In this document: piece by piece, positions 5,866 through 53,756 of the stretch
Layout: every line of letters starts with the position of its first letter
Numbering within the stretch: the first letter of the stretch is position 1
NCBI RefSeq assembly: GCF_026151205.1
Contig: NC_087073.1
Coordinates: 19,356,658 to 19,420,657, forward strand
DNA: 64,000 nt
Direction of reading: 5' to 3'
DNA from: Bolinopsis microptera
Lineage: Eukaryota
Notes under the pieces: generated by a model
What the model saw: only the letters and a program-made list of their open reading frames with translations
Told to the model about the DNA's origin: nothing
The model's database searches: none
Program-made: the position numbers and the translations under genes

Positions 5866-5882
5866 TTTAAGGTTTAGGCATT

Positions 5883-10133: not shown

Positions 10134-10600
10134 GTCGACGAGTCCAACTCAGCGCGCGTCTTGGCAGGTTATATGATGAAATTCTTTTAAAAAATAAGTG
10201 GCTACAATGAGCATCTTTAAAAAATTAAAGATATAAAGAATTACTACCCTTCAAAATACTATTAAAAATGTTCGTGTATCAAAATATTTGACTTTACCAG
10301 TCTCTTGACGTTTCAAAATGAAACTAAGGTGAAAATGCAGTTACAACAGGACACTGGTTCTTTATGATTACTGAAAGAAATTATTTCAAAATGTTATAGT
10401 TCTAAACACTTCATAAATGCTTTTCTGTGAACTAAAGAGATCATATCGAAAAACTATTCCCCTGATATTACGACAATATTTGTAGGTTTACAACCTACCA
10501 GGACGCGCGCCGAGTTGGACTCGTCGACGGTCCTGGACGGTCCAATATATGGAACAGATATTTTACGAGTATCACCCGTTAAGACAATATCTGAATTAAA
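10134..10600. mobile_element. MITE-like element with ~40-bp terminal inverted repeats. The repeat family also has a copy at 39291-39410.
   Basis: 10134 GTCGACGAGTCCAACTCAGCGCGCGTCTTGGCAGGTT is the reverse complement of 10485-10528 GGTTTACAACCTACCAGGACGCGCGCCGAGTTGGACTCGTCGAC. The shared peptide LTGDTRKISVPYIG in ORFs 10454-10654 and 39196-39384 confirms the repeat family. Confidence 0.55.
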
Positions 10601-20968: not shown

Positions 20969-23656
20969 TTGTTATTGTTGTCTCCACCATGTGCTACCTC
21001 TATAAGGTTTAGAACACTGAGAAGTCGGTTAATCGCTGGTTTATTCGGAGTAGTTTCTGAGTTCTCTTCACTTTCCAACCCTGAAATTGTTTTTATTGTC
21101 TGCTTAATACACTGCATCTATAAAGTCAATTCGGCGAGTTTATTTGGCTTGATTTAATCTAATTTTGTATGGCTCTGCGGATATGATTGAGTTCATTTTT
21201 GATTATACGACACTCTTTTGACACTCTTTTGACACTCTTTTGGCAAAATAATTCACCTAGATATTACATATCAAAGAAATTACTTACCAAGCCAAATAGA
21301 CTGTCGCCACTGTACTCAAAACAAATGATACAATAACGCCTTGAACCACACTAAGCATGTTAACCCCTAGGAAAATTCCAGTGGTAAAGACTTCAACATT
21401 TTGAAATGTTCACATGAAAAGTGCAAAATTTGTATTATCAACTAATTCATGTGCGAGGTATTTTACAAGGTTTATTCATGTGTGCATTCCTGCAGCTGCC
21501 AACCCAAAAAGAACGCCCACGTAAGATACATTTTACAGACCTTGAAGTTCAGTGATAGCAGGTGGAGGGGAGTCCAAAGATAGGCTCTTTCTGGGAGATA
21601 GAGGCTGATGTTTTGGGTTTCCTTGATCTCCATAGATAAGGACTTTGGAGAAAGGTGTTCAGGACTGTGCAGTGACATGCTCTGGGCTCGGGACCGATTC
21701 TGAGAGTTGTTGAGTTGTAAATATCTAGGCCACACATTTGTTTTGACGCAAACACGTGATGTCAAACACTATTTCCATTGCCAATATCTACAAATATGAC
21801 ATCTAAATTAATATACACTTTCCTAGCACTACCTCACTTAGCACTTACTAGATTTGTTTTCTTTGATTTCTTGAGAACAGCTCTGCGATTGACGACAGAC
21901 TTAAAGTGTCTGGTTTTAAAGGGCTCCTGTCCTCCCAAGTTCTCAACATCTCCCATATCAGCTGTTGATAGGAATGAGAAGGATTGTCGGAGTCGCTCCG
22001 CTTTCAGATACTTCGTCCTTGGGTCACATATGTTAAGATCAACCTGGCGTTCTGTTGATTTATTAAACTTAGTTGCTCAAATGCAAATGAATACAACTAG
22101 CGGCTAGTAAAAACTGAGATGAACGATGTTGAAAAACAGCCCAAAAACCTGAGGCAGTCTTTAGCGTTATAGAGTTGCGAGAAAATAGTTTGAATTTCAG
22201 CATCTGAGTTTAGAGGGTCTCTCCAATCACCCAGTACAATAGATCTGTGTGTCTTGCTACAACCTTGATCTGTTAAATATACGACACATTATTTATCATT
22301 CAACAAAAACAAAAGGTTTTAGATCGTATATCTGGAAAATTTTGCCATGATATGTCTCTGCCTATATTTCTTCACTTCAAATGAAGGCTTGCCTCACTTA
22401 CCAATAAGCGACCGAGCGGTGCAGCAGGACCATCTCTTACACTTGTAGGCTCCAGGATGGTAAAACTTGAGAGTCTTTGTGTTCTTTGAACAGGTCTTGC
22501 GGAGTGAGGATATCCACTCAGTTACCTCGTTCAATGTCTACAGAGGATTACTTTATATTATTGTATTTGTGACCAATATTATTGAAATATCATCAAATTT
22601 TGTTTTAATAAATAACAATAAAGGTGTACTTAAAATATACAACCCACCGAACCTTGAGTTTCATGTACAGAACAGAAGGACGCTCGTTATTCTTGGATAT
22701 CAGTATCTGTAGTATGTGTTTGTGTCCGAACACGTACTTATCCACTCTTTCCACCGAGGTGATATCACTGATAGCTATCAACTTAGTGCACCCTAGTGAC
22801 TGTCCCTGGAGATGTTGCATTAAGCGGGTCTTTTCAAATGGGGGCTGCTTCACGATTACATCCTTTGCAAAGTTTTCATCCTTATATGTTATGATTGGTG
22901 GCTTTTATTTCTTATTTGTACGCTCAAGCCTATTTTATATGACCTGATTCATACCCAACGAGCTTCCGTGATTATACTACGCCCTTATCTTTCTTTAGCA
23001 AAAAATACAACTTGCACGAAATTTATCAAAAATTCATAGTTATGAGAAATTATCTTAATCTGATAAAAACATGAAATTGGACGGCTTCCAAAAGCTGAAA
23101 AATCAGAAACTTGAGCTAAACTTACCGAAGATGCTTTAGAACCGTAGCTAAGTGCTGCGAAAGACAGAGAGAAGAAGCGTTTCTTGAATACTCGGACTGT
23201 TTGGGATTGTCCGAGACTAATCCGGTATTTCTCAGCCCACCCACTTTGTATTATCGTGGTGTGGGAGAAGAGATGTTGGGAGGTAGGGGTCGCTATCTTG
23301 GCGGGAGGGCTGCTGCCTGATAAATAGGCAATTGTTAACAACAAATATTATCTTGTTATCGTAATTTCAGTTATGAATTGTTGTATTGATAAGCTTAGTT
23401 AGGTACCCTCTTTAGAATTAGAGACACTACGATCCAATAAAGCCCGTTTGATTGGCAAAATATCGAGGGACCATCCTTAGATTGAATTTTGGAGCCAATG
23501 ACCGAATATCTACAATATAAAATTAAAGTACTCAGTAAAATAAAATATCATGATTAAGTCTGTCAGCCATCCTGCAGTATTATTATAAAGATGATGTAAT
23601 TTCGCCGCCACAATTTCAAAATTTCAAAATACTACAAATCCTGTCAGGCAACCATT

Positions 23657-23975
23657 AGCAGCTCCAATCTTACATTAGCAGCTCCAATCTTACATTAGCA
23701 GCTCCAATCTTACATTAGCAGCTCCAATCTTACATTAGCAGCTCCAATCTTACATTAGCAGCTCCAATCTTACATTAGCAGCTCCAATCTTACATTAGCA
23801 GCTCCAATCTTACATTAGCAGCTCCAATCTTACATTAGCAGCTCCAATCTTACATTAGCAGCTCCAATCTTACATTATCAGCTCCAATATTACATTAGCA
23901 GCTCCAATCTTACATTAGCAGCTCCAATCTTACATTAGCAGCTCCAATCTTACATTAGCAGCTCCAATCTTACAT
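23657..23975. repeat. 20-bp minisatellite TACATTAGCAGCTCCAATCT, ~16 copies
   Basis: Direct reading. Two variant units occur at ~23875. Confidence 0.9.
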
Positions 23976-24545
23976 TTGTAGATGGTCACAAGATTGCTGA
24001 TAAAGTGTCGAACGTTGTCTGTTTGCCTTTCTACAAAAGGGAGGAGGGGGAGCATGAAACTCTCCTTACACGGCTGAGCGCACATGTTACCTATCTGCTG
24101 CATCGCCTGAAACATATCAGAAGATAAAACACTACCAGAAATTAATAACAAGCAATTGCACAAAGTTTATTCCATTTAAGATAATAATAACGTATTTCGT
24201 TTGATCCATCCGTACAGAATAGTTGGGGGTAACCTATCATTATCTAACCTTAGCACAGAGCATAAGAGTACGAGATATTCTCATGTTAGGGTGATTGCTG
24301 TTTAGGTAGAACAGTTTAGGGTTCATTATTGCGGGAACGAAGAATCTCAGAAACACAAAACTGCTCACTGCCATATACTGTAGGTCCTGATGGTTGTAAT
24401 GGGGATACATGTTTAGAATTCATTCTGGTGAAATCTATGTTTCATATCGAAGAATGAAATCGCGATTTAAAATAAAAAGTGCGAGTCAAAAGTCGAGATG
24501 ATTTTGCCAGGTTTGATTTATCGTAAGAAAATATCTTAGACTTAC

Positions 24546-36463: not shown

Positions 36464-36806
36464 GAACCATGACAACCACCTCTCCCTGCACGAATATCTG
36501 GGTCTCACCGAGGAGGAGCTAGCTGACCAGGAGCGACAATTCACTGTCCAGCAACACGTGGACTACTTTCGCGCGCATCTTGACACCAACCACGACGATA
36601 TCCTTAACCCTGACGAGGTTTTAGCGTGGGTTTCAGATGATAAGAGACATTTGAGGGTGAAAGCGGAGAAGGTGATGCAGACGGTGGATAAGGATAGGAA
36701 TGGGGTGTTGAGTATTGAAACTGAGATTACAAGTGATGTGAAGTATTTTTCAGAGCATGAATTGACGAGGTATGGTGATATGCTGCTTTACCAGGATGAA
36801 CTTTAG
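36464..36806 (+). CDS. CREC-family terminal exon (EF-hands 4-6), ending QDEL-stop
   Basis: Acceptor TTCTCAG. The EF loop DRDA|NHDNHLSLHE is split by the intron. Further loops are DTNHDDILNPDE and DKDRNGVLSIE. The C-terminus is YQDEL, an ER-retention-like signal. Confidence 0.75.
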
Positions 36807-37308
36807 TTTTAAAATATGTGCAATTAATTGATTGATTATTTCGAATTAATAAGTCTGGATAATAGATGATAATTTTGTTGTTTTTTGTAAATAACTTCAG
36901 GTAGATTGGATGTTGATAATTTATTTCACTCAGATTAATGTTTTTGTGACAGTGTCACAATGTAGATTGTATTGTCATGGTGTCCTGACTTTAGTGTATA
37001 TACGATGTTTTGCGGTAAGTACAACAGGTGTCTATATTTGTTTATTTATTTTGTGTGTATTGTGTAGACTATAGGTGTGACGATCATTATACAGAATATG
37101 AACAAATTCCATGAAATTTACGTGATTAAAACGATAAACCCCATTCCTTAAAAACGGTTTTATTTTAATCAGATTTTCGTAAAAATGTCATGATTTGAAG
37201 CAAAGACTGATATCAGGGAAATTAAAAGTACATTGATGCAGTCAAAGCACATTCAACTTGGAACGATCAAAGATTGCAACACAACATACAACACAGGAGA
37301 ACAATACC

Positions 37309-37478
37309 CCTTCCTTAGTATCATGAATTAATAAAAGCAAAGTAAGCAGATAAGGTGTTGGTTACCAATAAGTTCGGATTGTATGAAGTCTGGTAATCAA
37401 TATCCCACGAAGATAGATAAAGTCTTGACATGAATTTTAAACTGCATTAATTATAGTGGATAAGCACCTCCAGCATAG
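37309..37478. repeat. Left arm of an outer ~170-bp inverted-repeat pair enclosing the palindrome
   Basis: Reverse complement of 39478-39650 at ~95% identity. Confidence 0.8.
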
Positions 37479-37830
37479 AGCCGCTCAGTAATTCATACTT
37501 CATTTATATTCATTATATGATTAAAAAAGGTCTGAGGAGAAGAAATAATATACAAGTTAGATCACCAGCTTGAATCTGAATTTGACGCTGATTATCATAG
37601 ACTGCTTTTAATACCCAGCTGTTCTGATTTATAATTGATTGGCTCGCTCATCTAAGCTTCTAAGTTGTGGGATGAGTTTACTCTAATAAGATAAATATAG
37701 GTGACATATTATTACACTGAAACCAAATCTTATTTGATTTGATAATAATGGACAACGCCTCCGCGATCTTATATTAGTCAATATCATTTAAAAGTTGAAA
37801 TAAGAAATCTAAATTAAGAATTTACCATCC

Positions 37831-39192
37831 TTAAGGGGGCATACACCAAAACAGTGGTTTGTGCAGTCCAGACCAATTGACCTCATAGGCAGTTCAGTGA
37901 CCTTCTAGCGCACCGTTTCCACACCAAAAACAATTATTTTGAGAATACCCATTTTTGTAATCGACCATTTCCTGGTTAAGAGTGCAATTTTCGGGAAAAA
38001 TTAATTTGTGGTTGAGACGCTATAAGTTAATCATTTCTTGCGGTATCGGGTTGAAATTTTGCTCGCCGTTTATTCACATCTATTTGAAGGTGTGTGTAAT
38101 ATCTTGATATCGTATCTAAAAAGGCTGGTATGTTATGAATTTTTAAAGTCAAAAAGCTAATATTGTCCTTTTCAGGCTTATTTTGACAAAAAGTCAGTCA
38201 GGGAAGATCGGATTGATTTGATGCTTGACATCAAATTGTTCTCTGAATCCTGGCGCATTTTTTGATGCCCTCAAAAATGCGTTTACTCAACTGGAAAGTT
38301 GATCTTTTGGACCTCAAAGCCAAACAACAAATTTAGGCACATTTTTCGTTTTTAATATTTACCGATTTTTCTAAAATTTTGATAGGAATGTGCTAGTGAC
38401 TTTTTGAAGGGTGCAAAATAACCGCAACTAGCACATTTATATATGAGTTATGAACAACAAAACACCCTAAAATGCTTCCCTTTGAAGTTATGGGAGAAAA
38501 TGTGATTTTTCATCTGCAAAGCCAAAAAATCACATTTTCTCCCATATTTTCAAAGGGAAGCATTTTAGGGTGTTTTGTTGTTCATAACTCATATATAAAT
38601 GTGCTAGTTGCGGTTATTTTGCACCCTTCAAAAAGTCACTAGCACATTCCTATCAAAATTTTAGAAAAATCGGTAAATATTAAAAACGAAAAATGTGCCT
38701 AAATTTGTTGTTTGGCTTTGAGGTCCAAAAGATCAACTTTCCAGTTGAATAAACGCATTTTTGAGGGCATCAAAAACTGCGCCAGAATTCAGAGAACAAT
38801 TTGATGTCAAGCATCAAATCAATCCGATCTTCCCTGACTGACTTTTTGTCAAAATAAGCCTGAAAAGGACAATATTAGCTTTTTGACTTTAAAAATTCAT
38901 AACATACCAGCCTTTTTAGATACGATATCAAGATATTACACACACCTTCAAATAGATGTGAATAAACGGCGAGCAAAATTTCAACCCGATACCGCAAGAA
39001 ATGATTAACTTATAGCGTCTCAACCACAAAATAATTTTTCCCGAAAATTGCACTCTTAACCAGGAAATGGTCGATTACAAAAATGGGTATTCTCAAAATA
39101 ATTGTTTTTGGTGTGGAAACGGTGCGCTAGAAGGTCACTGAACTGCCTATGAGGTCATTTGGTCTGGACAGATTTGGTGTATGCCCCCTTAA
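37831..39192. repeat. 1.36-kb near-perfect palindrome (foldback-like), arms ~675 bp, 13-nt central loop at ~38501-38513
   Basis: 37831 TTAAGGGGGCATACACC...to 39192 is its own reverse complement. Only a handful of substitutions and small indels separate the arms. The whole stretch is non-coding and A/T-rich. Confidence 0.9.
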
Positions 39193-39290
39193 ATTATGTG
39201 GTGCTTTGTAAATCTAGTTCATAGCATAAAATTGCAGGAAACAAACCAGCCACGACGTTTAAAATATGAAATGAAATGTCCACTACCACC

Positions 39291-39410
39291 AAGGACTCGT
39301 TTAACGGGTGATACTCGTAAAATATCTGTTCCATATATTGGAACAGGACCGTCGACGAGTCCAACTCGGCGCGCGTCCTGGTAGGTTGTAAACCTACAAG
39401 GACTCGTCTG
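39291..39410. repeat. Inverted-orientation copy of the 10.5-kb repeat-family end
   Basis: ~90% reverse-complement identity to 10485-10600. It contains the AGGTTTGTAAACCT mini-hairpin. Confidence 0.6.
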
Positions 39411-39477
39411 ATATTATGTACTTGAATATTAAATAAAATATACTGAAACTGAAATTTTTTCCGGTAATTTCATAGAA

Positions 39478-39650
39478 TAATGCTGGAGGAGCTTATCCAC
39501 TATAATTAATGCAGTTTAAAATTCATGTCAAGACTTTATCTATCTTCGTGGGATATTGATTACCAGACTTCATACAATCCGAACTTATTGGTTACCCACA
39601 CCTTATCTGCTTACTTTGCTTTTATTAATTCATGATACTAAGGAAGGAAC
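39478..39650. repeat. Right arm of the outer inverted-repeat pair
   Basis: See the left arm at 37309-37478. Confidence 0.8.
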
Positions 39651-40960
39651 TGCGAGCCCTGAGGCGGGAGGGATGTCTGGTGTTGATCGGATTAAGTTCA
39701 AACCTATTGGAATAGTAGTTGTTATAATATTACGAAAATTAAACCAAACCATAACCAAATAGAACAAATTTCAAAGGAAAAACCACGTGAACATGAAAGT
39801 AGAAGCAGTTAAAACCATCATAAGTCATGTACCCACCTCCCCAAAGAATTTGGTTTGCAACAGAATTATTCCAAATATGAAAGCAATATTTAAGAATCAC
39901 AAAACTTCTTAAGTCAATTCAGTGCTTCTGAAGATATAATTTATCAAGAATCACAAGACACACGATAACTTAAAAACTGAGAACTAATCGTCTTATTGCC
40001 TAAGCGATCAGTGTCAAATGTTTAAAGAATGTTTAATTTGAATTAAAGGCAGCTCTGAGGTGGAGTTAATGCCAGTTTTCTCACTCTTGAAAAATAGTTA
40101 AGTCGTTTGAATTAGTCGTCTCGTGTGACCTTTGCCTGGAATAACTGCGGTTTGATTAAGCTAAGTAGTTCAACTAATAAGCAAAACATCGCGGAGGGGG
40201 CATTAGGCTACCTGGAATGCGAAATTTTTTCCCAATTTCTGATCCTCAATAATTGGAAAAAATAGGGTTAAAAATACGTCGATCAATGTTGGTTTTAATT
40301 ACCGAGCTGACTTTTATGGCAAAACCTTTATATTCGAATATAAAGTGATTAAACACGCTTGTTAGTGCAGATATCTCTTTTAAATGGAAGAAAATCTTGC
40401 ACTGTAGTTGTAGAGCAATTGAACATTCTCGTCAATGCAGAGCTCTCCTTTGAACCGAATCATAATCTGCCCTGCGATTGGTGGAATTGTGCAAACTGCT
40501 GAGTGCAAATGGGGGCCACTGCATTTATAAATGTATGCCAATATGTCTGTTACATCTAGCATGTGTCTCAGATCTGAGCAATAACCAAATCATTTGCAGC
40601 ACTCAAAAGGATCGTTGACACATTGCGTCAGTCTCATCGTGGATTGCTGACGTAATGATTTGAATAGTCCCAAATGACTGAACAAACAATTATAATTCTG
40701 AGATAGATTTCTATTAAGTTTACACACTACACAGTTATTTAACTCGAAAATTGTATAATTTGGAAGGCTTCTTCCGTTTGTAGAAATGACATTTTTCTAC
40801 ATAATATACAGTCGTTGGTAAAATACCTCTTATACCAACATTGTAGATAGTAAACAATTACTGTCATTTCATTAAAACACAAGCTACACCCTACGGCCTA
40901 CACACACACAGGAAGTTCAATTACCAACAAGCCACACATTTGTTCCACAACTCTGAGAGT

Positions 40961-42770: not shown

Positions 42771-43517
42771 TGCTTTTTGCTGATGAAGACTCTGTTCCAC
42801 GAGTACCGAAAGTCGTAGACTTTATAATCGTATTTTATCCCTTAAGCCGTTGATGGAAACATATAATAGTAATAATAACTATAATAAACATTATCATATT
42901 AGTGGACTTTCTTGGTTGGGCTCTATCAATTTATCTTGATCGATCCAATCGTAGTAGTCTGGAACGAGTTAAATTTTAAGTTTGATGTATAAATTGAAAT
43001 TCTTAAGTTTCAACTAATATTCCAGCGATATATATCGCTGTCAGAATGAAGGTGAGCGATTAGACGGGCGACTACGGAGATGTCGGCCAAACACCCGACC
43101 AGTTGCAATTATCAACTAACCTGGAAGATAACAGTTGACGATCTGATCGATAAGCTGCAGTTAGCTGCAGTCTTGCTAGGAGAGTAGGGGGCGTGATACT
43201 ATAGCACAATCAATAATTTTTACAATTAGTTCATGACGCAGTTAGCATGACACAATACCATAAGATTATTCTAATTACAGTCGCAATTAGCGACAGTAAG
43301 TTAGATATAACATGTTAGTAATACATTAGTTAGTTATATGTAACATGCAAGTTGTACAAGTGAACGCGCTATTATTGCAGTTAGTAAATTGACAAACAGG
43401 TGAAATATTCAAATTCTCTGACGGCTTACCTTGTTTGACAGTGATATATCGCTGGAACGCTATACTGAACCGTATTTCTCATCATATGGAGGCCACGAAA
43501 ATCACGCGGACATAGTC

Positions 43518-44783
43518 AGCTGCAAGTACTAGTAGTAGTACCAGCTCAAGAACATTGTCAGGTGCAAGTACCAGTAGTAGTACCAGCTCAAGGACATTGT
43601 CAGGTGCAAGTACCAGTAGTAGTACCAGGCACCGGCTCAAGGACATTGTCAGGTGCAAGTACCAGTAGTAGTACCAGGCACCGGCTCAAGGACATTGTCA
43701 GCTGAAAGTACCAGTAGAAGTACCAGCTCAAGGACATTGTCAGGTGCAAGTACCAGTAGTAGTACCAGCTCAAGGACATTGTCAGCTGAAAGTACCAGTA
43801 GTAGTACCAGCTCAAGGACATTGTCAGGTGCAAGTACCAGTAGTAGTACCAGCTCAAGGACATTGTCAGGTGCAAGTACCAGTAGTAGTACCAGCTCAAG
43901 GACATTGTCAGGTGCAAGTACCAGTAGTAGTACCAGCTCAAGGACATTGTCAGGTGCAAGTACCAGTAGTAGTACTAGCTCAAGGACATTGTCAGGTGCA
44001 AGTACCAGTAGTAGTACAGCTCAAGGACATTGTCAGGTGCAAGTACCAGTAGTAGTACCAGCTCAAGGACATTGTCAGGTGCAAGTACCAGTAGTAGTAC
44101 CAGCTCAAGGACATTGTCAGGTGCAAGTACCAGTAGTAGTACTAGCTCAAGGACATTGTCAGGTGCAAGTACCAGTAGTAGTACTAGCTCAAGGACATTG
44201 TCAGCTGAAAGTACCAGTAGTAGTACCAGCTCAAGGACATTGTCAGGTGCAAGTACCAGTAGTAGTACCAGCTCAAGGACATTGTCAGGTGCAAGTACCA
44301 GTAGTAGTACTAGCTCAAGGACATTGTCAGGCTGCAAGTACCAGTAGTAGTACAGCTCAAGGACATTGTCAGCTGAAAGTACCAGTAGTAGTACCAGCTC
44401 AAGGACATTGTCAGGTGCAAATACAAGTAATAGTACCAGCTCAAGGACATTGTCAGGTGCAACTACCAGTAGAAGTACCAGCTCAAGGACATTGTCAGGT
44501 GCAAGTACCAGTAGTAGTACCAGCTCAAGGACATTGTCAGCTGAAAGTACCAGTAGTAGTACCAGCTCAAGGACATTGTCAGGTGCAAATACAAGTAATA
44601 GTACCAGCTCAAGGACATTGTCAGGTGCAACTACCAGTAGAAGTACCAGCTCAAGGACATTGTCAGGTGCAAGTACCAGTAGTAGTACCAGCTCAAGGAC
44701 ATTGTCAGGTGCAAGTACCAGTAGTAGTACCAGCTCAAGGACATTGTCAGGTGCAAGTACCAGTAGTAGTACCAGCTCAAGGA
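43518..44783. repeat. 42-bp minisatellite, ~30 copies, with higher-order variant structure. It is open in all six frames.
   Basis: Unit CAGGTGCAAGTACCAGTAGTAGTACCAGCTCAAGGACATTGT. Variants GCAAATACAAGTAATAGT and GCAACTACCAGTAGAAGT recur as a 4-unit block repeated twice at 44366-44700. Indels at ~44010 and ~44330-44350 break the frame. Confidence 0.9.
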
Positions 44784-44947
44784 AAGCCGCATCACAGTTC
44801 ACAGATATCAAATTGGAAATACAGACACAAAATCTCGATGACGATCCAGCAGAGTCTGCCAGGAACTTGATCATCAAACTAAAGGAACGGGTTACTGATT
44901 TAATGACCAGGTATTACGAGCTTACCGGGTCCCGGAAATTGTCTTGA
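44366..44947 (+). CDS. Possible coding read-through of the 42-bp array. It encodes (SGASTSSSTSSRTL)n and runs into a unique 55-aa tail.
   Basis: In the + frame the repeat reads Ser/Thr-rich 14-mers. After the last unit it continues as RKAASQFTDIKLEIQTQNLDDDPAESARNLIIKLKERVTDLMTRYYELTGSRKLS-stop. The unit length is divisible by 3. Confidence 0.25.
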   Translation: MSAESTSSSTSSRTLSGANTSNSTSSRTLSGATTSRSTSSRTLSGASTSSSTSSRTLSAESTSSSTSSRTLSGANTSNSTSSRTLSGATTSRSTSSRTLSGASTSSSTSSRTLSGASTSSSTSSRTLSGASTSSSTSSRKAASQFTDIKLEIQTQNLDDDPAESARNLIIKLKERVTDLMTRYYELTGSRKLS

Positions 44948-46470
44948 ACTGGATTATATTGATTGCAATCTCAATCCTTATAAAAGGAGCTGTAACGAGC
45001 GGTACATATTAATCAAAGGCTGTTTATTGTAAAATATTTACATTGCTTTACAGATTGGCCACAGGGAAGTTGTGGCATGCACTCAGCCAATGGTTGGAAC
45101 ATGTCCTAAATGTAGTGGGTGAGTTGCAGGGAGGTAGGATAGTTGTGATCCATCGCAGAAAACTGGGTTTTCAAACATTTTGAAAAAAATGGAAAAATTT
45201 TGAGAATCCATGTAAATTAAATACGAATTGTGCCTTGAAACATCTCCGCCCAAAAAGGGCCTTTTCTATATGTTAACAAGTAAGTTTTGGCCTTTTAAAA
45301 TCGGTTTGTTTCGGTGGTTCCCTTCTGTGTGTAATTCATGAGGCACGATAAGAGCTCTGAGCTGCAGTTCCAATGGTTTTTGGACAAAAATTATAAATTC
45401 GAAAGATGTTTCCATTTTGAGGAATCACTATGAGAAATTCTCTAGTCCACTTGCGCCGATTCATTTAAATAAACATAAAAAGAGTAATCGTTAACACTAT
45501 AAATGCGCGGCACCTTTTTTTATGTACCGGACGCGAGGTTCGTTTGGACATCTAATTTGAATTGCAAATCAGCTGTTTGACAGAATGCCTCGTTAGAATG
45601 AGAATAAACCAATAAATTAAATAGCATGCATCAAATAATACCAATATCGAGTTTGGCTAGCATAAACTAATTACAACACTACTAATTACAAAACTACAAA
45701 TCTATTGGCTCCAAGTAATTGCGTAATAAATTCACTATACACTACACTACACACTACTATGTCAATGTGTTTACCGTGTTTGGGTGCCCATCATATTTTA
45801 CAAATGGGAGCAATATATTTGAACGATTCTATTTTATATTCATTTATTGCTGTACTCTGTAAAATTTGAAAAGTATTTAATAAAAATAATTTAAAAAAAC
45901 ATTTATTGAGGAAACGATGTAACAGAGTCAATATATTTTAACGTTGCCATGGGGTGGCAAGAACTCATACATGTTTGTTTGTTTGTTTGTTAATGTTCAT
46001 TAAGCATTAAGAGTTCTGTAAAATTGCCCACTCAGCGAAAAATTCTTAGCAAAATCCTTATTGAAACCTAAAAATAAGGTCGTGCGGATATTTAGTGCGG
46101 ATATTTAGTGTTTAGGAGTTGACCGCACTCCATGGATCATCAGCCGGGTAAGATCCGCGGCAGTGGGACCCTTATTTCTGTGGGATCCTGCTATTTCACA
46201 GGATCGAACAGAGAAAAGGGCTGGCACGAAGAACAGATAGTGAAACTATTTGTTCCCCCCACTGAGGCGCAAGCAAGGGTTGTTGCCTGGCCTTTTTAAA
46301 ATCCTCAACGTGGTAGGTAAAATCCAAGTTGTGGTTGCTAAAATCGTGATAAAATCTTGATAGTAGCTGATAAAATAATAAAATCGTGGTCTACTAAAAC
46401 GCAGACACGGTGCTTAGCTGGTTAGGGTTCCTCTTTTGGGGTCACCAGGACATCTTCTCTGTACGTCACC

Positions 46471-46995
46471 TCAGATGACAGGATGAGATCCGATAAATCG
46501 GAGGCTCATGCTCCTCACAGTCACTTCGATCGGTTGCACTTCAATAATGCAGGGCAGTGAAACCGACTGCGTTAGCCTGGGTGCAGGCGGAGCTGCAGTT
46601 TCTGTGAGGAGTTCTGGCTTCACCAAGACCACTTCTTTGTTAACACTAACAGGTAGGACCACTTGAGGAGATTGCAACTCATCTGTTTGAGTCCTGATAT
46701 CCGCTGTCTGCGGCACTGGTGTAGTTGCGGCATCCGCCACCACGATTCTTTTAGGCATTCTTTTCTCTGCTGCCCTTTCAATTGTACTGATTTTCTGGTC
46801 CAAATATTCAGCGAACTCCTCGTTCGCCAAATTGCTCGTCAGCTCGTAGCTGGCCATTCGACTTTCCACGTCCTCAAGAGCAGTGTCGACTGCTCGTTTG
46901 CTGGAACGGGCCCAGAAAACTCCAATAATACCGCCAAGGATGACGGCTAGTAGTAAGCCGAAGCTTACTAACATAAGGATTTCTTCGAAGATCAT
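46471..46995 (-). CDS. Hypothetical single-pass membrane protein (N-terminal TM helix plus coiled-coil/disordered tail)
   Basis: TM segment MLVSFGLLLAVILGGIIGVFW. Kozak-like AAAAGATGA. No recognisable domain. Confidence 0.3.
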   Translation of the reverse strand: MIFEEILMLVSFGLLLAVILGGIIGVFWARSSKRAVDTALEDVESRMASYELTSNLANEEFAEYLDQKISTIERAAEKRMPKRIVVADAATTPVPQTADIRTQTDELQSPQVVLPVSVNKEVVLVKPELLTETAAPPAPRLTQSVSLPCIIEVQPIEVTVRSMSLRFIGSHPVI

Positions 46996-47715
46996 CTTTT
47001 CTTTGTCTTTGAAGATGGTAAAAATAGTATTAATTCAAGATAATGATATTGTTGAAGGAATACTGGCAGGAAGATAATCTGTTGTCACAGTATTTATACC
47101 CAAATCCAGCACGTGCAAGTTTCAAGTCAGTTGCGCGTGCAAATTGATTTTATCGAGGGGGTTGGTATGGTAACAAGAATCTCGGCTGCTGTGTGAGCAT
47201 GGTTGGTCTGTTTGACCTGGGAAAGGGAAGGTAGCAACCAGATTCATGTAAACCCACATCTATCAATAAAAATCTTCAAGCTACGCTACTCTGTACTCGC
47301 TAAAACACATTAGCCCATAAATTACTTAATTACACGCTTTAGAAATTATCATCACAGGACAACATTACACTTAAAAACTTTGAACATAACACGAGGAAAT
47401 ATGGACAGAACTGAACAAGAACCACATTCGAAGACTGAAAAATCTGGAGGACTCTGCAACCCAGGAATGAACTATTCACTTATCATCGCTCAATTATCAT
47501 CAATAATCGGTTTGGTATCGACGTTACAAACTTTGATTTTCCGACTTTAAAGCTGAACTCTAAATGCTTAATGAACACACTTGCAGGTACCACCCGTATT
47601 CACACGCAGACCTGAGTTTAGTAATTTCCGATACAAGATTGGGGACGGGTTCTATAAACAAACAAACAAACAAATAATATATTATATTATATCGAATATT
47701 ATTACAATTAAGAAC

Positions 47716-47900
47716 CACAGTGGAAAATGTTGGGATTTTAATTTCGCAGAAAACGATATAAAAATAATCGTACGATTATCGACGATAATCGTCGCGCGCG
47801 CGTTAAACGCACGATAATCGTCTAATCTGACGATAATCGTCATATTTGGCGAATAACGCTATTTCGCGACGTTTATTAGGCGATAATGAGCGATATCACG
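47716..47900 (+). repeat. Transib left TIR plus a subterminal CGATAATCG/ACGATTATCG motif array
   Basis: CACAGTGGAAAATGTTGGGATTTTAATTTCGCAGAAAACGATA... is followed by at least 6 copies of CGATAATCG(T). Confidence 0.7.
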
Positions 47901-48729
47901 ATAATCACACAATAAATCATGGAAATAAAATGTATTTGTTATTTCATGTAACGAAGGAAGTATTTCGGTTATGCTTTAATATGGAAATCAGAAATCGGAT
48001 TCATATTTACAGTCTACTGGTAATGTTCCGCAAGCTTCGTAATCGTAGTGAACGCAAAACGAATGAAATTGAAAATGTCATGTTTCACAATGAAATTTGA
48101 TACTTTAATTTATTGTTATCGATAAGATTAGTTACATATATGATATAAGACAGCGGTAGTAAATATGAAATATTTATCATCTATCTAAGTTTGGCACGCA
48201 GCGCGCGGGCCGGTATCTTTTGTATAATGTATAATATGTAGTTTCCTAGTGTAATGTTTAACCCGAGAAGTAATTGCCACAGTGAAAAATTAGATTTTAT
48301 AAAATTATATTATTCATTTTAACTATTGTGTTTAGTGAACAAATTTTAGCGATCATTGAAAACATTTGTCAAATTGAATTTAAATTAATGTCTAAGCGGC
48401 GGGCCAGCGCGTTATTTTGAGCCGCGCACCAAAACCGATTTTAATGGACTTAGAATTCATAATACGAATCGAGCGCCTGTAATGTCGTTCGAGACAGATA
48501 CGCTCTCCTTGGTAACGAGCCAAGTCTATTGTTTACATTTTGTACGTGATAAATCTGATCGGGCCTTGTGATAGGAATTTAGTAGTCGGCAGTCAGAACT
48601 TTAATGACGATTATTTAGATACATGAAATTGTGTAATTTGCAATCATAACTGTTTTGACTTTTGAACCACGCAACTAAATTACTCTTGGTAATCAGTAAA
48701 AGTAATAACACATTCACAATAGAACTCAA

Positions 48730-48824
48730 ATGGATAATTCGAGACTGGTAATGTTCGCCGGGCTTACTGAGACGAATCAGCTGAAGCCCCTGGGCTCAAA
48801 TGAGCTCAGGGGGAAATGCTGGCA
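48730..48824 (+). CDS. RAG1-like transposase exon 1 (start codon)
   Basis: ATG in the context CTCAAATGG. Encodes MDNSRLVMFAGLTETNQLKPLGSNELRGKCW. Donor GTGAGT in phase 2. Confidence 0.45.
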
Positions 48825-48974
48825 GTGAGTTATCTTACCAGTTACCTCAATTATGAATATTCAAACATAGCATCAAAAAATTTCATTTTGAACAACACTT
48901 TAATAAAAAGATTTTATCCGTTGAGAAACTAATAATCACCAATTCAATCCGATTTTATTGAATCATAATTTCAG

Positions 48975-49051
48975 ACACTTTCGAGCACGGTACCCCGGGC
49001 TGAAGGAGACAGCGATCAGGCAGGCCATCGCCAAGTTCTGCTATATCGAGG
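48975..49051 (+). CDS. RAG1-like transposase exon 2
   Basis: Acceptor TTTCAG. Encodes HFRARYPGLKETAIRQAIAKFCYIE. Donor GTAAGA in phase 1. Confidence 0.5.
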
Positions 49052-49198
49052 GTAAGAAATTACATAATGAGTTTGGCTCTAACACACTTGATTAATTTTG
49101 TAGTTCAAATTAATGTATGGTAATCTACCAAGTCAATACGTTACATTTGAGCTTGATTCGGTGACTTGAGGAACTGCCCATAAGACAAAATATTGCAG

Positions 49199-49362
49199 AG
49201 AGTGCTGTTACCCCAGCACAATGCCGGGAGGTGCGGCTGCGGATGAAAAAATACGCAGCCGACGAGAAACACCGGCTGAAGAGAAGAAAGCTGGATCAGG
49301 AGCCGCAGCAGAGCACCAGCTCAGGGACCCAAACGGATCCCATACACGCTCTGTCTTGTAAG
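49199..49362 (+). CDS. RAG1-like transposase exon 3, with nonamer-binding-domain-like basic region
   Basis: AADEKHRLKRRKL resembles RAG1 RRAQKHRLRELKL. Donor GTAGGG in phase 0. Confidence 0.55.
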
Positions 49363-49471
49363 GTAGGGTCTCGTTTCTCAATTACCACCACATATTTGGT
49401 ATTATACTTATTCTAACTGCCACGTATTTTCCTCATAATTGTGATGACTACATCCACCAACTTCTAATTAG

Positions 49472-49596
49472 GATTGCGAGACCGCCTCAATGAGGCACCA
49501 AGTAGAGTTGCATCAGGCTAAGCTGGCGGAAATGAGGACCGAGCTGCTGCTGCGGGAGTGCAGCTCACCAGTTCAGTCCCAAGTGGCTGAAAGGAG
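49472..49596 (+). CDS. RAG1-like transposase exon 4
   Basis: ASMRHQVELHQAKLAEM resembles RAG1 ARNEHRQADELEAIM. Donor GTAAGA in phase 2. Confidence 0.55.
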
Positions 49597-49711
49597 GTAA
49601 GACTGATTGATAATATTTCTACATGTTCCAATATTATTTTCTCATCTCTTTTCATACTCATTGGGAAGAATTCACCCGACAGTTAAATCTTGATTTGTAA
49701 CTTTATTTCAG

Positions 49712-49828
49712 TACGGCGGTGATATTTACACCACAGCGGGAGTTTGCTAGCTCTTCGGCCCTCCCGACTCTCGAGGTCAGACCGTCACCGAGGTCGAGAG
49801 TCGCCTCACAAGCCTCGTACGCCTCAAG
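49712..49828 (+). CDS. RAG1-like transposase exon 5 (Ser/Pro-rich linker)
   Basis: Acceptor TTTCAG and donor GTGAGA. The open phase-2 frame is consistent with its neighbours. Confidence 0.45.
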
Positions 49829-49953
49829 GTGAGAAGTCATTATAAGAAACTTTTTGCGTTTTGTTTCTAGATGTTTGAGCAAGTAAGAATGATGATTAAC
49901 AAGAGCGCAATGCACACTTTCTGCTATCATTAACAACTGATTTTCACTTTCAG

Positions 49954-49996
49954 TGCGAGCGATTGTTTTGGACCAGAGTCCATTATTGAGAGCCGG
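49954..49996 (+). CDS. RAG1-like transposase exon 6 (short)
   Basis: Acceptor TTTCAG and donor GTGAGA. Ends in phase 0. An alternative reading runs to the stop at 50067. Confidence 0.35.
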
Positions 49997-50597
49997 GTGA
50001 GACAGGCGGCCCAGAAAAGGGCTAGAGATTCAGCCAAGAAAACTTTCAGTTTCAAAGATTTTAGATAGATTTATTGTGTTCTCTGAGAAGATTTATCATC
50101 ATTTTGCAATTAAACTTTCAACTAAACTTGTAATTAAACTTTCAACTAAACTTGTAATTAAACTTGTAACTAAACTTTTCACTGAACTTGTAACTATGAA
50201 TCGATGTATAATGTATATTGTATAATGTATCTAATGTGTAATGTATTTAATGTATAGTGTAGGTAATGTAAAAAGTGACAGATAAATACCCAGAACTTGC
50301 AGGCAGTTTTCACGCTCATTGATAATCAGAACTGAATTTTACAACATATTAACATTTAATTTCCCTGAACTGCAATGTATTTATCTGTCAAAGCCCCAAA
50401 CGGTCTATCAGCCTCCACGCGGCTTGGGGTGGGTGGTGTATTGATGTATTTCTGTAATTATCGTACACTAGCGAATGATTCCAAAAAAAGTATTTTCATT
50501 TGTCTTCGGAAGTTACTTAACTCTTGTTGCATGAAACCTAGAGGCACAGTAATCAAATTCAAGTAAAATTCATATTTTAGATCGTATCATGAAACAG

Positions 50598-50746
50598 TGC
50601 CCTTGCGTTGTCTGCAATGGTGAGAAAAGAACTGAACGTACCATAAAGGAGCATCTGGTCGAGTATGGACATTCAAAGAAAACTTTGCTGACAGATTTTC
50701 TCGAGCATTCGACACCAGATGACAAATTGTTCCACTATGCATTGAG
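50598..50746 (+). CDS. RAG1-like transposase exon 7 (CPC-x2-C...H-x5-H zinc-finger-like)
   Basis: Encodes CPCVVCNGEKRTERTIKEHLVEYGH. Donor GTAATT in phase 2. Confidence 0.5.
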
Positions 50747-50851
50747 GTAATTTAGCATTAGTAAATCGTCACAGAGATAAGTCAAACAAAGTTTAAAAAT
50801 AAACTCCATGGCAGTAAGTTGAGCAGATAATTCATCCATTTAACCCAACAG

Positions 50852-51023
50852 GAAAATGCTGGAGAAGAGTTTCTCACAAGGAACAATCGTCGAAGTGAAA
50901 GGTTTACCGGGTAAACCCCTAGTGATTACTTCGATAATCAAGCCTCAGAAAAATATAGCTACACCTGCAGACAGCACGAAGAGGAAACACGCTAAAGTGT
51001 TCAAGGATATCGTAGAGAGCCAG
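50852..51023 (+). CDS. RAG1-like transposase exon 8
   Basis: Acceptor CAACAG and donor GTATCT. Ends in phase 0. Confidence 0.5.
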
Positions 51024-51148
51024 GTATCTATCCTAAATAGTGTTATCAGGTTATTTTTAATCTGTAATAATGTGCAGACCAGATTGCTTATTGATCAACC
51101 AGAAATGGTGATGGTGGTGAAAATAAATAATGGATGCACTGTTTGCAG

Positions 51149-51326
51149 GCTGAATCAAGTTGTTCGAAATGTCCCGAACATGAGATCGATATGGTAACGA
51201 AACGAATAAGAACAGCTCAGATAAATTCGTTATCAAAAGAAGAACGTCAATACATCAGTGCCTCTACTGGAGTAAAGAGTATAGAACCAATTGACGCTCT
51301 TCATGTTGCCATGTTCAAAGCAGAGT
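51149..51326 (+). CDS. RAG1-like transposase exon 9
   Basis: Acceptor GTTTGCAG and donor GTGAGT. Ends in phase 1. Confidence 0.5.
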
Positions 51327-51432
51327 GTGAGTGCTTGAGTTTAAATTCTAACTGTTGATATAAAACATAGATATGAATACCGAACTAACATATCATGAGT
51401 AAGGCAGATTCTCATATTGATAAACTTTCCAG

Positions 51433-51542
51433 CGAACACGGGGACATCCAATGTTCGTAACAATCTGCGACCTATGCTGAAGAAATTTGATATCAAATTA
51501 GAATCAGAGAAAGAGATAAAAGCAGTTGAAGAGTCTTATACT
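51433..51542 (+). CDS. RAG1-like transposase exon 10
   Basis: Acceptor TTTCCAG and donor GTAAGT. Ends in phase 0. Confidence 0.5.
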
Positions 51543-51667
51543 GTAAGTTCTGATCTTAGTCACATACACTACTTGCTGATCTCGCGATAAATTTAGCACT
51601 TAAATCTAATACAGTCTGTCATCACTAAAAATCAGTTAAATTCTCAATTCTCATTGAACATCCTAAG

Positions 51668-51827
51668 GTGAGTTACATGAGTGCAATGGTGTCTCTGTCG
51701 CACAAAGCGGCGGCTCATGACAAGAACGAGACCAAAAGCGGCGATATTCTGGCACGGAGAACACCAGTGGCCTACTGCGATGGCCAAGAATTGCTGACAA
51801 AAACACTTGTAACGTTGAAGAATACAG
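51668..51827 (+). CDS. RAG1-like transposase exon 11 (first catalytic Asp candidate)
   Basis: YMSAMVSLS resembles RAG1 ALVSALMDM. PVAYCDGQEL resembles RAG1 KESCDGMGD (D600). Confidence 0.6.
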
Positions 51828-51941
51828 GTGATTAAGTTTTCTCTATTTCTGTTCGTCATAGTATTAACATTAGGATAGAGGCTGTCTTGTTTATGAATTA
51901 AGTTTTTATCAGCTGACCAAAATCGGCAATTAATGTTGCAG

Positions 51942-52126
51942 GACAGTTACAAATCGGGAGCGATAAAAAGATTTACACAAAAATTTTTATCGATGCAGAC
52001 ATAAAGTCGACAAAAGTTGCGATCAATGTCCTAAATCAACCTAATTGCAACAGCTCCTATGCCCACGCTATGTTTGTGTACACAGAGGCTCCTGACCATC
52101 AGCGAAACATGGATGTGATTTTCAAG
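51942..52126 (+). CDS. RAG1-like transposase exon 12
   Basis: Acceptor TGTTGCAG and donor GTATAT. Ends in phase 0. Confidence 0.55.
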
Positions 52127-52236
52127 GTATATTTCTTTATAAAATGTAAAATTTGATCTGCCTTTCGTGAAATTATAAACCCAACGTCATATAAGTATAG
52201 ACCTGATGACACACAAATGTAAGGTTGACACCACAG

Positions 52237-52478
52237 GTGGTAAATCGGGAGTTAATACAGCTAAAAACACTGTCATTCTGTGGAGCTGATGTTAAGCTGA
52301 TGTTGTGTGCAGACACCAAAGCACTGTGGGCTGTGTTAGGAATGGGCAGCAACGGGACTTATCCATGCCCAATGTGTGAGATACACAAAGACCTCATGAA
52401 AGTTCCACGAGCACAGAGATCAGCTGCCAAACCCCGGACCTTTGCTGGAATCAAGCGAAACTTCGAAGACAACATGAG
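52237..52478 (+). CDS. RAG1-like transposase exon 13 (second catalytic Asp plus CxxC zinc ligands)
   Basis: VKLMLCADTKALWAVL resembles RAG1 KPLCLMLADESDHETL (D708). TYPCPMCE resembles RAG1 VYICTLCD (C727/C730). Confidence 0.7.
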
Positions 52479-52596
52479 GTAATGTAGTTTCAAAATTGAA
52501 GAACTTAATCCACTCTCTGCTTGCATCGTAAGGAATTGAGTAAACCCTGTTAGGTACTCTGTTATGAAGGACTTGACCCTGAATTTCGTTTTCCAG

Positions 52597-52723
52597 GATG
52601 ACCCAGTGTAACCCGAGATCCCAAGCGAAATTCCTGAATGTTGCATCGCGACCTCTCACAGACTGTTTCGGGAATGATAATGATGATCTGATTAACTGGG
52701 TCGCTGTTCCGTTCTTGCACATA
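52597..52723 (+). CDS. RAG1-like transposase exon 14
   Basis: AKFLNVASRPLTDCFG resembles RAG1 AKPFIETVPSIDALHC. Donor GTATGT. Confidence 0.5.
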
Positions 52724-52817
52724 GTATGTGACACGAATTGAAAAACTGTTGATGTTCATTCCTGTTTCAGTCGTGCTTTATTTATTTGAATTAGCTAATT
52801 TTCATCGTGGAAAACAG

Positions 52818-52995
52818 TCACGAAACCTTAAGCTTTCTCAGACCATCAAAGTGGGGACTGTCCTGTGGACTGAGTACGGTAAATTGTGCGAGGACATTGA
52901 CTTTGTGCTAGCTTGCAACGTCACGGACGGATTTCTCCCCAACTGTTATAGCAGCACAACTGACTTCGGTGCCATGATCCTCCGCATACAGCAAG
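52818..52995 (+). CDS. RAG1-like transposase exon 15 (weak acceptor; start approximate)
   Basis: Open frame ...TVLWTEYGKLCEDIDFVLACNVTDGFLPNCY... Donor CAAG|GTACTT in phase 1. Confidence 0.45.
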
Positions 52996-53104
52996 GTACT
53001 TGATAAATGTCTTGTTCCAAAACAATACGAGGGTTTTCGAGTAACAATTAAAATTAGAAAGTATTTTCGTTAGATGGTTACAATAAACAAATTCTCTTCT
53101 TAAG

Positions 53105-53285
53105 GTAATCGTGTAGCCACGAAATGTAACAGTGGCCCGCTCTCCTCTCAATATGAGAAGTTTCTGAGGGGAATTAATGTAATACCTGAGGCTTATCATG
53201 GTGTGTCGCTGACGGGTGTTAGAGCTGGATACCTGCTGAAAAGTGACGACTCCCAATTCTGGAGGGAACAGTTTTACCAAAATGA
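53105..53285 (+). CDS. RAG1-like transposase exon 16
   Basis: KCNSGPLSSQYEKFL resembles RAG1 CQYSFNSQRFAELL. Donor GTGAGT in phase 2. Confidence 0.55.
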
Positions 53286-53396
53286 GTGAGTTGCGTTTAA
53301 TCAGAACAGTTAATCTCATGAACAAATAACGAATGAGTTGATAAATCTCCTTTGCAATTGAAAAGTTACCACGTGAATGACAGGGTCTGTATTCAG

Positions 53397-53595: not shown

Positions 53596-53756
53596 GTATT
53601 GTTGTAGCTTGTAGCGAAACTGGCATTCTTCCAACTCCCAAGATAGCCTGCAACAATTTAGGATTCGTGCTTAAGTCTGATATTGGAAAATTCTAGTCTG
53701 ATTAATTGTAGTAATTCTCCAGCATCGTTTTCTTAACAACCTTTCAATTTAACTAG

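What the first reader, a model, noticed from the sequence alone, without database searches (positions are those of the whole stretch)
37309..39650. Nested inverted-repeat structure: a 1362-bp near-perfect palindrome inside an older 170-bp inverted-repeat pair, next to another TE end
37831-39192 is its own reverse complement, with ~675-bp arms, a 13-nt loop and only a few mismatches. It would form a giant hairpin or cruciform. It is non-coding and lies about 1 kb 3' of the CREC gene. It is enclosed by a second, more diverged inverted-repeat pair (37309-37478 / 39478-39650), and an inverted copy of the 10.5-kb MITE end (39291-39410) is wedged between. This looks like a foldback element, or a recent inverted duplication, inserted into an older hairpin element. 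Such long perfect palindromes are unstable and usually young.
Basis: seen in the sequence. Interest (0 to 1): 0.6.

Follow-up and report, generated by a model that had tools for sequence, protein, structure and literature searches.

The report
Hairpin-shaped transposon inserted at TTAA
The 1.36-kb palindrome is real, but it is one copy of a non-coding, hairpin-shaped "jumping gene" family found in comb-jelly DNA. It inserted recently at a TTAA site, so it is an ordinary transposon, not a one-off rearrangement or a nested older hairpin.

Summary
**Observation confirmed.** 37831-39192 is a near-perfect palindrome. The arms are 37835-38510 and 38525-39188, with a 14-nt centre, 8 mismatches and one 12-nt indel. 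It is flanked by TTAA on both sides.

**The palindrome is a mobile element.**
- The window comes from a ctenophore related to Mnemiopsis.
- In the orthologous locus of a closely related genome (L004, flanks ~90% identical), exactly 1358 bp are missing and a single TTAA remains. This is a classical empty site.
- The terminal 20-mer occurs in 12 independent marine-metagenome contigs. All have different flanks, and homology extends 25-250 bp inward.
- Two conserved end types (A and B) match the window's left and right ends. One complete short derivative is also bounded by TTAA.
- It is therefore a non-autonomous foldback-type DNA transposon. A TTAA duplication with 5'-GG...CC-3' termini fits the Kolobok signature rather than piggyBac. 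No transposase link was shown.

**The "older outer hairpin element" is not supported.**
- The right outer arm (39480-39647) is absent from the relative.
- It has no target duplication.
- It is a recent inverted copy of the ancestral left segment.

**The wedged piece** (39301-39399) is a separate ~99-bp element. It has 8-bp target duplications and is also absent from the relative.

**Verdict:** ordinary biology, a new member of a known kind.

The parts
37831..37834 (.). Left copy of the TTAA target-site duplication
   Evidence: The sequence reads ...ccatccTTAA|GGGGGCAT. The relative L004 has a single TTAA at this position.
37835..38510 (+). Left arm of the foldback element (676 nt), carrying the 'A-type' end GGGGGCATACACCAAAACAGTGGTTTGTG...
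   Evidence: Arm alignment. The A-type end is shared with contigs L005, L009, L010 and L014.
37852..37863 (+). 12-nt spacer present only at the A end, between the terminal 16-mer and the subterminal motif
   Evidence: It is the only indel between the arms. The same extra block is present in all A-type ends of other copies and absent from all B-type ends.
38511..38524 (.). Central 14-nt unpaired loop
38525..39188 (-). Right arm (664 nt), carrying the 'B-type' end (reverse complement GGGGGCATACACCAAATCTGTCC...)
   Evidence: The B-type end is shared with L006, L007, L008, L011, L012, L015 and L016.
39189..39192 (.). Right copy of the TTAA target-site duplication
   Evidence: The sequence reads ATGCCCCC|TTAAattatg. 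Empty site in L004.
37309..37476 (+). Left outer segment: ancestral sequence, orthologous copy present in the relative
   Evidence: L004 18156-18334 aligns to it within collinear flanks.
39480..39647 (-). Right outer arm: lineage-specific inverted copy of 37309-37476, with no target duplication
   Evidence: It is absent from L004, which has ~23 unrelated bases there. It shares all window-lineage substitutions of the left segment, including an 11-bp deletion.
39293..39407 (+). Independent ~99-bp mini element (39301-39399) with 8-bp duplications GGACTCGT (39293-39300 and 39400-39407)
   Evidence: It is absent from L004.
10472..10590 (-). Second copy of the mini element (10480-10582) with 8-bp duplications GACAATAT
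   Evidence: A third copy lies in L001 at 5917-6004, with duplication TCAACACA.
36558..36806 (+). Last exon of the upstream EF-hand (CREC-like, ...YQDEL) gene; context only

Best explanation
**The element.** 37835-39188 is one copy of a non-autonomous, foldback-type cut-and-paste DNA transposon. Almost the whole element consists of two ~670-nt terminal inverted repeats around a 14-nt centre. It has no coding capacity.

**The insertion.** It integrated into a TTAA tetranucleotide about 1 kb downstream of an EF-hand gene in a ctenophore genome and duplicated the TTAA. This happened after the lineage split from its closest sampled relative. Alternatively, the relative lost it by precise excision.

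**Superfamily (inferred).** A TTAA duplication with 5'-GG...CC-3' (RR...YY) termini is the published signature of the Kolobok superfamily. The element is probably mobilised in trans by a Kolobok-type DDE transposase that recognises its ends. This step was not shown.

**End asymmetry.** The two ends are not identical. One end carries a family-conserved 12-nt spacer between the terminal and subterminal motifs. The 'indel' between the arms is therefore a design feature of the family, not decay.

**Arm co-evolution (inferred).** The rest of the arms co-evolves within a lineage, through gene conversion or hairpin mismatch repair.

**Neighbouring features are separate events in the same lineage.**
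- A ~99-bp element inserted with an 8-bp duplication.
- A 168-bp segment was copied in inverted orientation without a duplication, probably by a replication or repair template switch.
For: **Shown.**
1. The palindrome and its TTAA flanks.
2. An empty site. The relative L004 has 89.8% identical flanks, and its alignment has one 1358-bp gap (the 1354-bp element plus one TTAA), reading ...caccatccTTAAattatatgg. L004 has no inverted repeat in that region.
3. A family.
   - The 20-mer TTAAGGGGGCATACACCAAA hits 12 marine-metagenome contigs.
   - All have unrelated flanks, and homology continues 25-250 bp into the element at 76-87%.
   - As a control, the 16-mer without TTAA gave 116 chance hits in viral and prokaryotic collections. 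None had TTAA and none had extended homology.
4. Two conserved end types. Both complete elements seen (the window copy and L014) carry one A end and one B end.
5. Long inverted repeats are a family trait. A-type (L010) and B-type (L006, L011) ends are followed by the same ≥140-nt sequence.
6. TTAA rather than TA.
   - Only 10.7% of TA dinucleotides in the window lie within TTAA.
   - The second end of L014, which the search pattern did not select, also abuts TTAA.
7. No ORF longer than 62 codons, and no protein relative of any frame.
8. Literature. Kolobok makes TTAA duplications and has 5'-RR/YY-3' termini, unlike piggyBac (PMC9587614). Xenopus Kolobok elements and T2-MITEs start AGGRR or AGGGGA (PMC6004289).
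Against: - No autonomous partner or transposase was found. The only contig with a different interior behind the same terminus (L015) has ORFs without any Pfam match. The superfamily assignment therefore rests on the target site and two terminal bases.
- Because TTAA is itself a palindrome, the empty site alone cannot distinguish a TTAA duplication from a TA duplication with A...T termini.
- 11 of the 12 metagenomic ends were selected with a pattern that contained TTAA, so they are uninformative on this point.
- No other full-length palindromic copy was seen, because the short-read contigs break inside the element.
- Copy number in the source genome is unknown.
- Absence from the relative could reflect precise excision rather than later insertion.
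Confidence: 0.85

Rival explanations
1. It is the same kind of foldback transposon but belongs to another superfamily. One option is piggyBac, which also makes a TTAA duplication. The other is Tc1/mariner/pogo, which makes a TA duplication; the element would then read AGGGGG...CCCCCT.
For: - piggyBac also duplicates TTAA.
- The empty site CCATCCTTAAATTAT is formally compatible with a TA duplication.
- No transposase link to Kolobok was found.
- From memory, the terminal GGCATAC loosely resembles Tigger1 ends. This was not tested.
Against: - Per PMC9587614, Kolobok termini (5'-RR...YY-3') differ from piggyBac's; from my own knowledge, piggyBac ends begin 5'-CC and end GG-3'. Here they are GG...CC.
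- Under a TA model, TTAA context at the window site and at the unselected L014 end would be a coincidence of about 0.035.
- The pogo-like impression of one L015 ORF got no Pfam support, even at E ≤ 10.
Confidence: 0.1
2. It is a one-off local inverted duplication (fold-back repair or replication template switch) that created the palindrome in place, unrelated to transposition.
For: - The arms are 98.8% identical.
- Only one copy is present in the window.
- A true non-transposon inverted duplication does exist next door, at 39480-39647.
Against: - Neither arm is present in the relative. The whole 1354 bp plus one TTAA is missing.
- Twelve unlinked contigs carry the same termini at different sites.
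- The arm asymmetry is shared by the family.
Confidence: 0.02
3. It is an assembly artefact: a chimeric long read or a missed hairpin adapter produced a false palindrome.
For: - Long near-perfect palindromes are a known artefact class.
- No read data could be inspected.
- No other full-length copy was recovered.
Against: - The arms differ at 8 positions and by a 12-nt block. That block matches the distinct A and B ends seen in independent short-read assemblies.
- The structure is embedded in collinear unique sequence with an exact TTAA duplication.
- Artefactual palindromes are usually perfect and lie at contig ends.
Confidence: 0.03

Closest known systems
Kolobok superfamily non-autonomous elements (e.g. 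Xenopus T2-MITE / Xmix family)
   Same: - TTAA target-site duplication.
- Purine-purine 5' termini and pyrimidine-pyrimidine 3' termini. T2-MITEs start AGGRR, one Xenopus Kolobok starts AGGGGA, and this element starts GGGGGC.
- Non-coding.
- Present as a dispersed family (PMC9587614, PMC6004289).
   Different: - It is much longer than a typical MITE (1354 bp).
- It consists almost entirely of two ~670-nt inverted arms.
- The host is a ctenophore, a phylum not in the host list given in PMC9587614.
- No autonomous Kolobok partner was identified here.
piggyBac-type MITEs and TTAA-specific elements
   Same: - TTAA duplication.
- The empty site carries a single intact TTAA, compatible with seamless excision or insertion.
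- Asymmetric spacing between terminal and subterminal repeats at the two ends. This property of piggyBac is cited from memory.
   Different: The termini are 5'-GG...CC-3' rather than the piggyBac 5'-CC...GG-3' (PMC9587614).
Foldback (FB) elements of Drosophila and other foldback-type transposons (Galileo, sea-urchin TU; cited from memory)
   Same: Very long terminal inverted repeats make up most of the element. It snaps back into a hairpin and has no coding capacity.
   Different: - There are no tandem sub-repeats in the arms.
- The duplication is TTAA rather than 7-9 bp.
- No sequence relationship was tested.

Membership tests
Kolobok superfamily (non-autonomous member) | [quoted passage not shown] | tested here: met
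   - TTAA lies on both sides in the window.
- The orthologous empty site has a single TTAA.
- The complete short copy L014 has TTAA at both ends, one of which was not selected by the search pattern.
- TA cannot be formally excluded, but it is about 28-fold less likely.
Kolobok superfamily (non-autonomous member) | Termini 5'-RR ... YY-3' (PMC9587614) | tested here: met
   5'-GGGGGCAT...ATGCCCCC-3' in the window and in all 12 related ends.
Kolobok superfamily (non-autonomous member) | Shares termini with an autonomous element encoding a Kolobok DDE transposase | tested here: inconclusive
   Only L015 shows the terminus followed by a different interior, and its ORFs have no Pfam match. No ctenophore genome could be searched.
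piggyBac superfamily | TTAA target-site duplication | tested here: met
piggyBac superfamily | Termini 5'-CC(C)...(G)GG-3' | tested here: not met
   Termini are 5'-GGGGG...CCCCC-3'. PMC9587614 states that Kolobok termini differ from piggyBac's; the piggyBac consensus itself is from my own knowledge.
Tc1/mariner/pogo | TA target-site duplication | tested here: inconclusive
   The empty site is compatible with TA plus A...T termini. However, TTAA context occurs at every informative end, with a chance probability of about 0.035.
Foldback (FB-like) elements | Long inverted arms forming most of the element | tested here: met
   Arms of 676 and 664 nt in a 1354-nt element.
Foldback (FB-like) elements | Arms built of tandem sub-repeats; 9-bp duplication (Drosophila FB; from memory) | tested here: not met
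   No tandem repeats in the arms. The duplication is TTAA.
MITE (descriptive class) | Small (< ~800 bp), non-coding, inverted termini, target duplication, many copies | tested here: inconclusive
   - It is non-coding, with inverted termini and a duplication.
- At 1354 bp it exceeds the usual size.
- At least 13 copies or ends were seen, but the true copy number is unknown.

The most novel reading that the evidence does not exclude
This family could be the first described Kolobok-type transposon lineage in ctenophores. Its conserved 12-nt spacer at only one end may be a functional left/right-end code for its transposase, comparable to the unequal spacers of piggyBac ends or the 12/23 rule. On this reading the spacer is kept by selection while the rest of the two arms is continually homogenised. 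Transcribed copies would also give perfect 670-bp hairpin RNAs that could feed siRNA silencing in a phylum that lacks microRNAs.
Probability: 0.2. Interest if true: 0.45.

Novelty: new member of a known kind. Interest (0 to 1): 0.25.

Why it matters
**Main use: annotation.**
- The structure should be masked as a transposon insertion. It should not be read as a regulatory hairpin, a structural rearrangement or an assembly error.
- The apparent 'nest' is three independent young events.

**Biological points.**
- It documents recently mobile DNA transposons in a ctenophore genome: filled against empty sites between close relatives.
- It gives a clean TTAA empty site.
- It shows that a 1.35-kb near-perfect palindrome with a 14-nt centre is present in this animal-genome assembly, and its arms carry mismatches, so it has persisted for some time.
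- The conserved asymmetry of the ends, together with co-evolving arms, gives a small tractable case for studying how foldback elements keep their arms alike.

Tried and rejected
1. **Six-frame protein query.** A chimeric query of all six-frame ORF pieces from 36.4-41 kb was searched against the 5.8-billion-protein collection, to find arm copies and the orthologous locus in one search. It gave no hits at E ≤ 1 and the search was wasted. The locus was reached instead by 'walking' from neighbouring genes through cluster members.
2. **Viral and prokaryotic scans.** The terminal 16-mer gave only chance matches. These served as a control.
3. **Pogo/Tigger-like partner in L015.** One ORF looked from memory like a DDE_1 C-terminus. 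It had no Pfam support even at E ≤ 10, so the lead was dropped.
4. **PIF/Harbinger 3-bp duplication.** Rejected because TAA on the left and TTA on the right are not direct repeats.
5. **Rfam scan of the window.** Nothing in the region.
6. **Outer pair as a transposon.** No target duplication, no terminal inverted repeats within the 168-bp unit, and no other copy in about 120 kb of ctenophore sequence held.
7. **More distant ctenophore loci.** L003 and Mnemiopsis L133 are too diverged in non-coding DNA to inform on the site.

Full report
**1. The observation**

The inverted-repeat search finds arms 37866-38510 / 38525-39169 (645 nt, 99%) and terminal arms 37831-37855 / 39168-39192. A gapped alignment joins these into one palindrome, 37831-39192.
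- It has 8 substitutions.
- It has a single 12-nt indel (37852-37863, present in the left arm only).
- Its centre is 14 nt.
- As single-stranded DNA it folds into one hairpin of -807.5 kcal/mol.
- No ORF exceeds 62 codons.
- The arms contain no tandem sub-repeats.
- Rfam finds nothing there.

The outer pair 37309-37476 / 39480-39647 is 168 nt with 3 mismatches. The segment 39301-39399 matches the reverse complement of 10480-10582 at 95%. An EF-hand exon ending ...YQDEL stops at 36806. The description is therefore accurate. The one exception is that the outer pair is not measurably more diverged than the inner one (Fisher p = 0.47).

**2. Where the window comes from**

The DNA-polymerase-A gene at 61462-63912 has its closest relatives in marine metagenome assemblies, the best at 94%. 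The named cluster members are Mnemiopsis leidyi (71%) and Pleurobrachia bachei (49%). The Mnemiopsis chromosome CM108484.1 is syntenic with the window. The window is therefore ctenophore DNA. This rests on homology and synteny; the species is unknown.

**3. The orthologous locus of a close relative**

I walked along contig ctg56448 of ENA assembly ERZ25073835 through neighbouring genes. This gave L004, which is collinear with window 34.3-64 kb.

Across 37200-39800 the aligned columns are 89.8% identical. The alignment has one 1358-bp gap at 37829-39186. The relative reads ...caccatccTTAAattatatggtgctttg... The window reads ...taccatccTTAA[GGGGGCAT...ATGCCCCC]TTAAattatgtggtgctttg.... That is an empty site with one TTAA against a filled site with two. 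The mobile unit is 37835-39188 (1354 bp).

Because TTAA is its own reverse complement, the same empty site would also fit a TA duplication with A...T termini. Two observations favour TTAA, by about 28 to 1:
- Only 10.7% of TA dinucleotides in the window lie within TTAA.
- The one element end that my search pattern did not pre-select (the right end of L014) also abuts TTAA.

**4. A dispersed family**

The 20-mer TTAAGGGGGCATACACCAAA occurs in 12 contigs of JGI and ENA marine metagenomes; most sample ids share the prefix Ga01155.
- Every contig has different flanking DNA.
- In every contig the similarity continues into the element, for 25-250 bp at 76-87%.
- Most contigs end inside the element, as expected for short-read assembly of a repeated hairpin.
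- As a control, the 16-mer without TTAA gave 21 viral and 95 prokaryotic hits. None was preceded by TTAA and none extended.

*4a. Two end types.* The ends fall into two conserved types:
- Type A: GGGGGCATACACCAAA-ACAGGGGTTTGTG-CCGGCC...
- Type B: GGGGGCATACACCAAAT-CTGTCC...

The window's left end is type A and its right end is type B. L014 is a complete ~324-bp deletion derivative and also has A on the left and B on the right. L012 joins a B end directly to centre-proximal sequence, so it is another deletion derivative. The 12-nt difference between the window's arms is therefore a family feature, not decay.

*4b. Long arms are a family trait.* Beyond the spacer, A-type (L010) and B-type (L006, L011) ends carry the same sequence for at least 140 nt. 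Long inverted arms are thus characteristic of the family, independently of this assembly.

*4c. Arm identities.*

| Comparison | Identity |
|---|---|
| Window A arm vs window B arm | 98% |
| Metagenomic A vs metagenomic B | 88% |
| Window arm vs any metagenomic end | 80-82% |

The window arms are no closer to ends of their own type than to the other type. I infer that the two arms of a lineage co-evolve, by gene conversion or hairpin mismatch repair, while the end-specific spacer is retained.

**5. Classification**

A TTAA duplication is shared by piggyBac and Kolobok. [quoted passage not shown] PMC6004289 gives AGGRR for Xenopus T2-MITEs and AGGGGA... for one full-length Kolobok. The present termini, 5'-GGGGGC...GCCCCC-3', meet the Kolobok signature and fail the piggyBac one.

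I found no autonomous partner.
- L015 has the B terminus followed by a different 3.4-kb interior, but its ORFs match no Pfam family.
- A six-frame protein query of the whole region found nothing.

The assignment 'Kolobok-type' is thus an inference from two of three defining features. That the structure is a transposon insertion is well supported.

**6. The surroundings**

*6a. Right outer arm.* L004 lacks the right outer arm. About 23 unrelated bases sit between flanks that align right up to both arm boundaries. L004 does contain the orthologue of the left segment.

The right arm shares every window-lineage change of the left segment, including an 11-bp deletion. Of the three differences between the arms, the left is derived at two and the right at one. 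There is no target duplication, and the 168-bp unit has no terminal repeats.

The simplest reading is a recent inverted duplication of 37309-37476 into 39480. A replication or repair template switch is plausible, because the outer junction lies in a short CCTTCC / AGAGG-like microhomology. This is weak evidence. The alternative is an old repeat kept alike by conversion and then lost in the relative. That would require a deletion coinciding with both arm boundaries.

*6b. Mini element.* The ~99-bp element occurs three times, each copy with a different 8-bp direct duplication:

| Copy | Position | Duplication |
|---|---|---|
| Window, near the palindrome | 39301-39399 | GGACTCGT |
| Window, at 10.5 kb | 10480-10582 | GACAATAT |
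| Relative (L001) | 5917-6004 | TCAACACA |

The copy at 39.3 kb is absent from L004. The '10.5-kb MITE' seems to be this element plus an older, diverged copy at about 10091-10180 in the opposite orientation.

*6c. Summary.* The 2.3-kb structure is therefore three independent, lineage-specific events in an intergenic stretch. It is not a young element nested in an old hairpin.

**7. Verdict**

The finding is real and well explained. It is a recently inserted copy of a foldback-type, non-autonomous, TTAA-targeting DNA transposon family of ctenophores, most likely Kolobok-related. It is a new family of a known kind, of modest interest.

The points worth a specialist's glance are:
- the conserved one-sided 12-nt spacer combined with co-evolving arms;
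- the persistence of a 1.35-kb near-perfect palindrome;
- the possible extension of Kolobok to ctenophores.

Noticed in passing
window 47716-55020: A ~7.3-kb element with termini CACAGTGGAAAAT... / ...ATTTTCCACTGTG and many subterminal CGATAATCG repeats at both ends. It is flanked by (G)AAC on each side and absent from the relative L004, which has a single AAC there. It looks like a CACTA/CMC-type DNA transposon. Its ORFs have no Pfam match.
   Followed up: partly
window 45740-55021 vs L004 11489-11810: A 9.3-kb stretch of the window is replaced by 320 bp in the relative. Those 320 bp contain their own small hairpin element (ttggttgttaaagaaatgagattttccactc ... gagtggaggatctcatttctttaacaacca). 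A 23-nt inverted pair (96%) also lies at 45994-46016 / 47555-47577.
   Followed up: no
window 10091-10180 and 10480-10582; L001 5917-6004: A ~99-bp mini element with 8-bp target duplications, no terminal inverted repeats and several internal short hairpins. Its superfamily is unclear. At the empty site, L004 carries 8 extra bases (TGGTCTGC) inside the target, which might be an excision footprint.
   Followed up: partly
window 20806-20982: A 16-bp tandem repeat (about 10 units) in which each unit carries the palindrome TGACGTCA, a CRE/ATF-type site.
   Followed up: no
window 43508-44902: A 42-bp tandem repeat of about 33 units lying inside long Ser/Thr-rich ORFs (43653-44870 on the + strand). 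It may be a repetitive coding exon. The relative aligns just downstream of it.
   Followed up: no
window 1-1155 and 23573-24052: A 171-bp satellite with 98-99% identical units runs off the start of the window. A separate, nearly perfect 20-bp tandem array of about 24 units lies at 23573-24052.
   Followed up: no
window 1611-3140, 4042-6572, 6577-6649: Non-LTR retrotransposon pieces: RVT_1 on the + strand, and an endonuclease plus RT on the - strand. A tRNA-like sequence (Rfam tRNA, 33.6 bits) lies directly next to them.
   Followed up: no
L015 1-3460: This contig has the family's B-type terminus followed by an unrelated 3.4-kb interior. The interior has 117-178-codon ORFs on the minus strand that match no Pfam family. 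It could be a larger relative or partner of the foldback element, or an unrelated insertion.
   Followed up: partly
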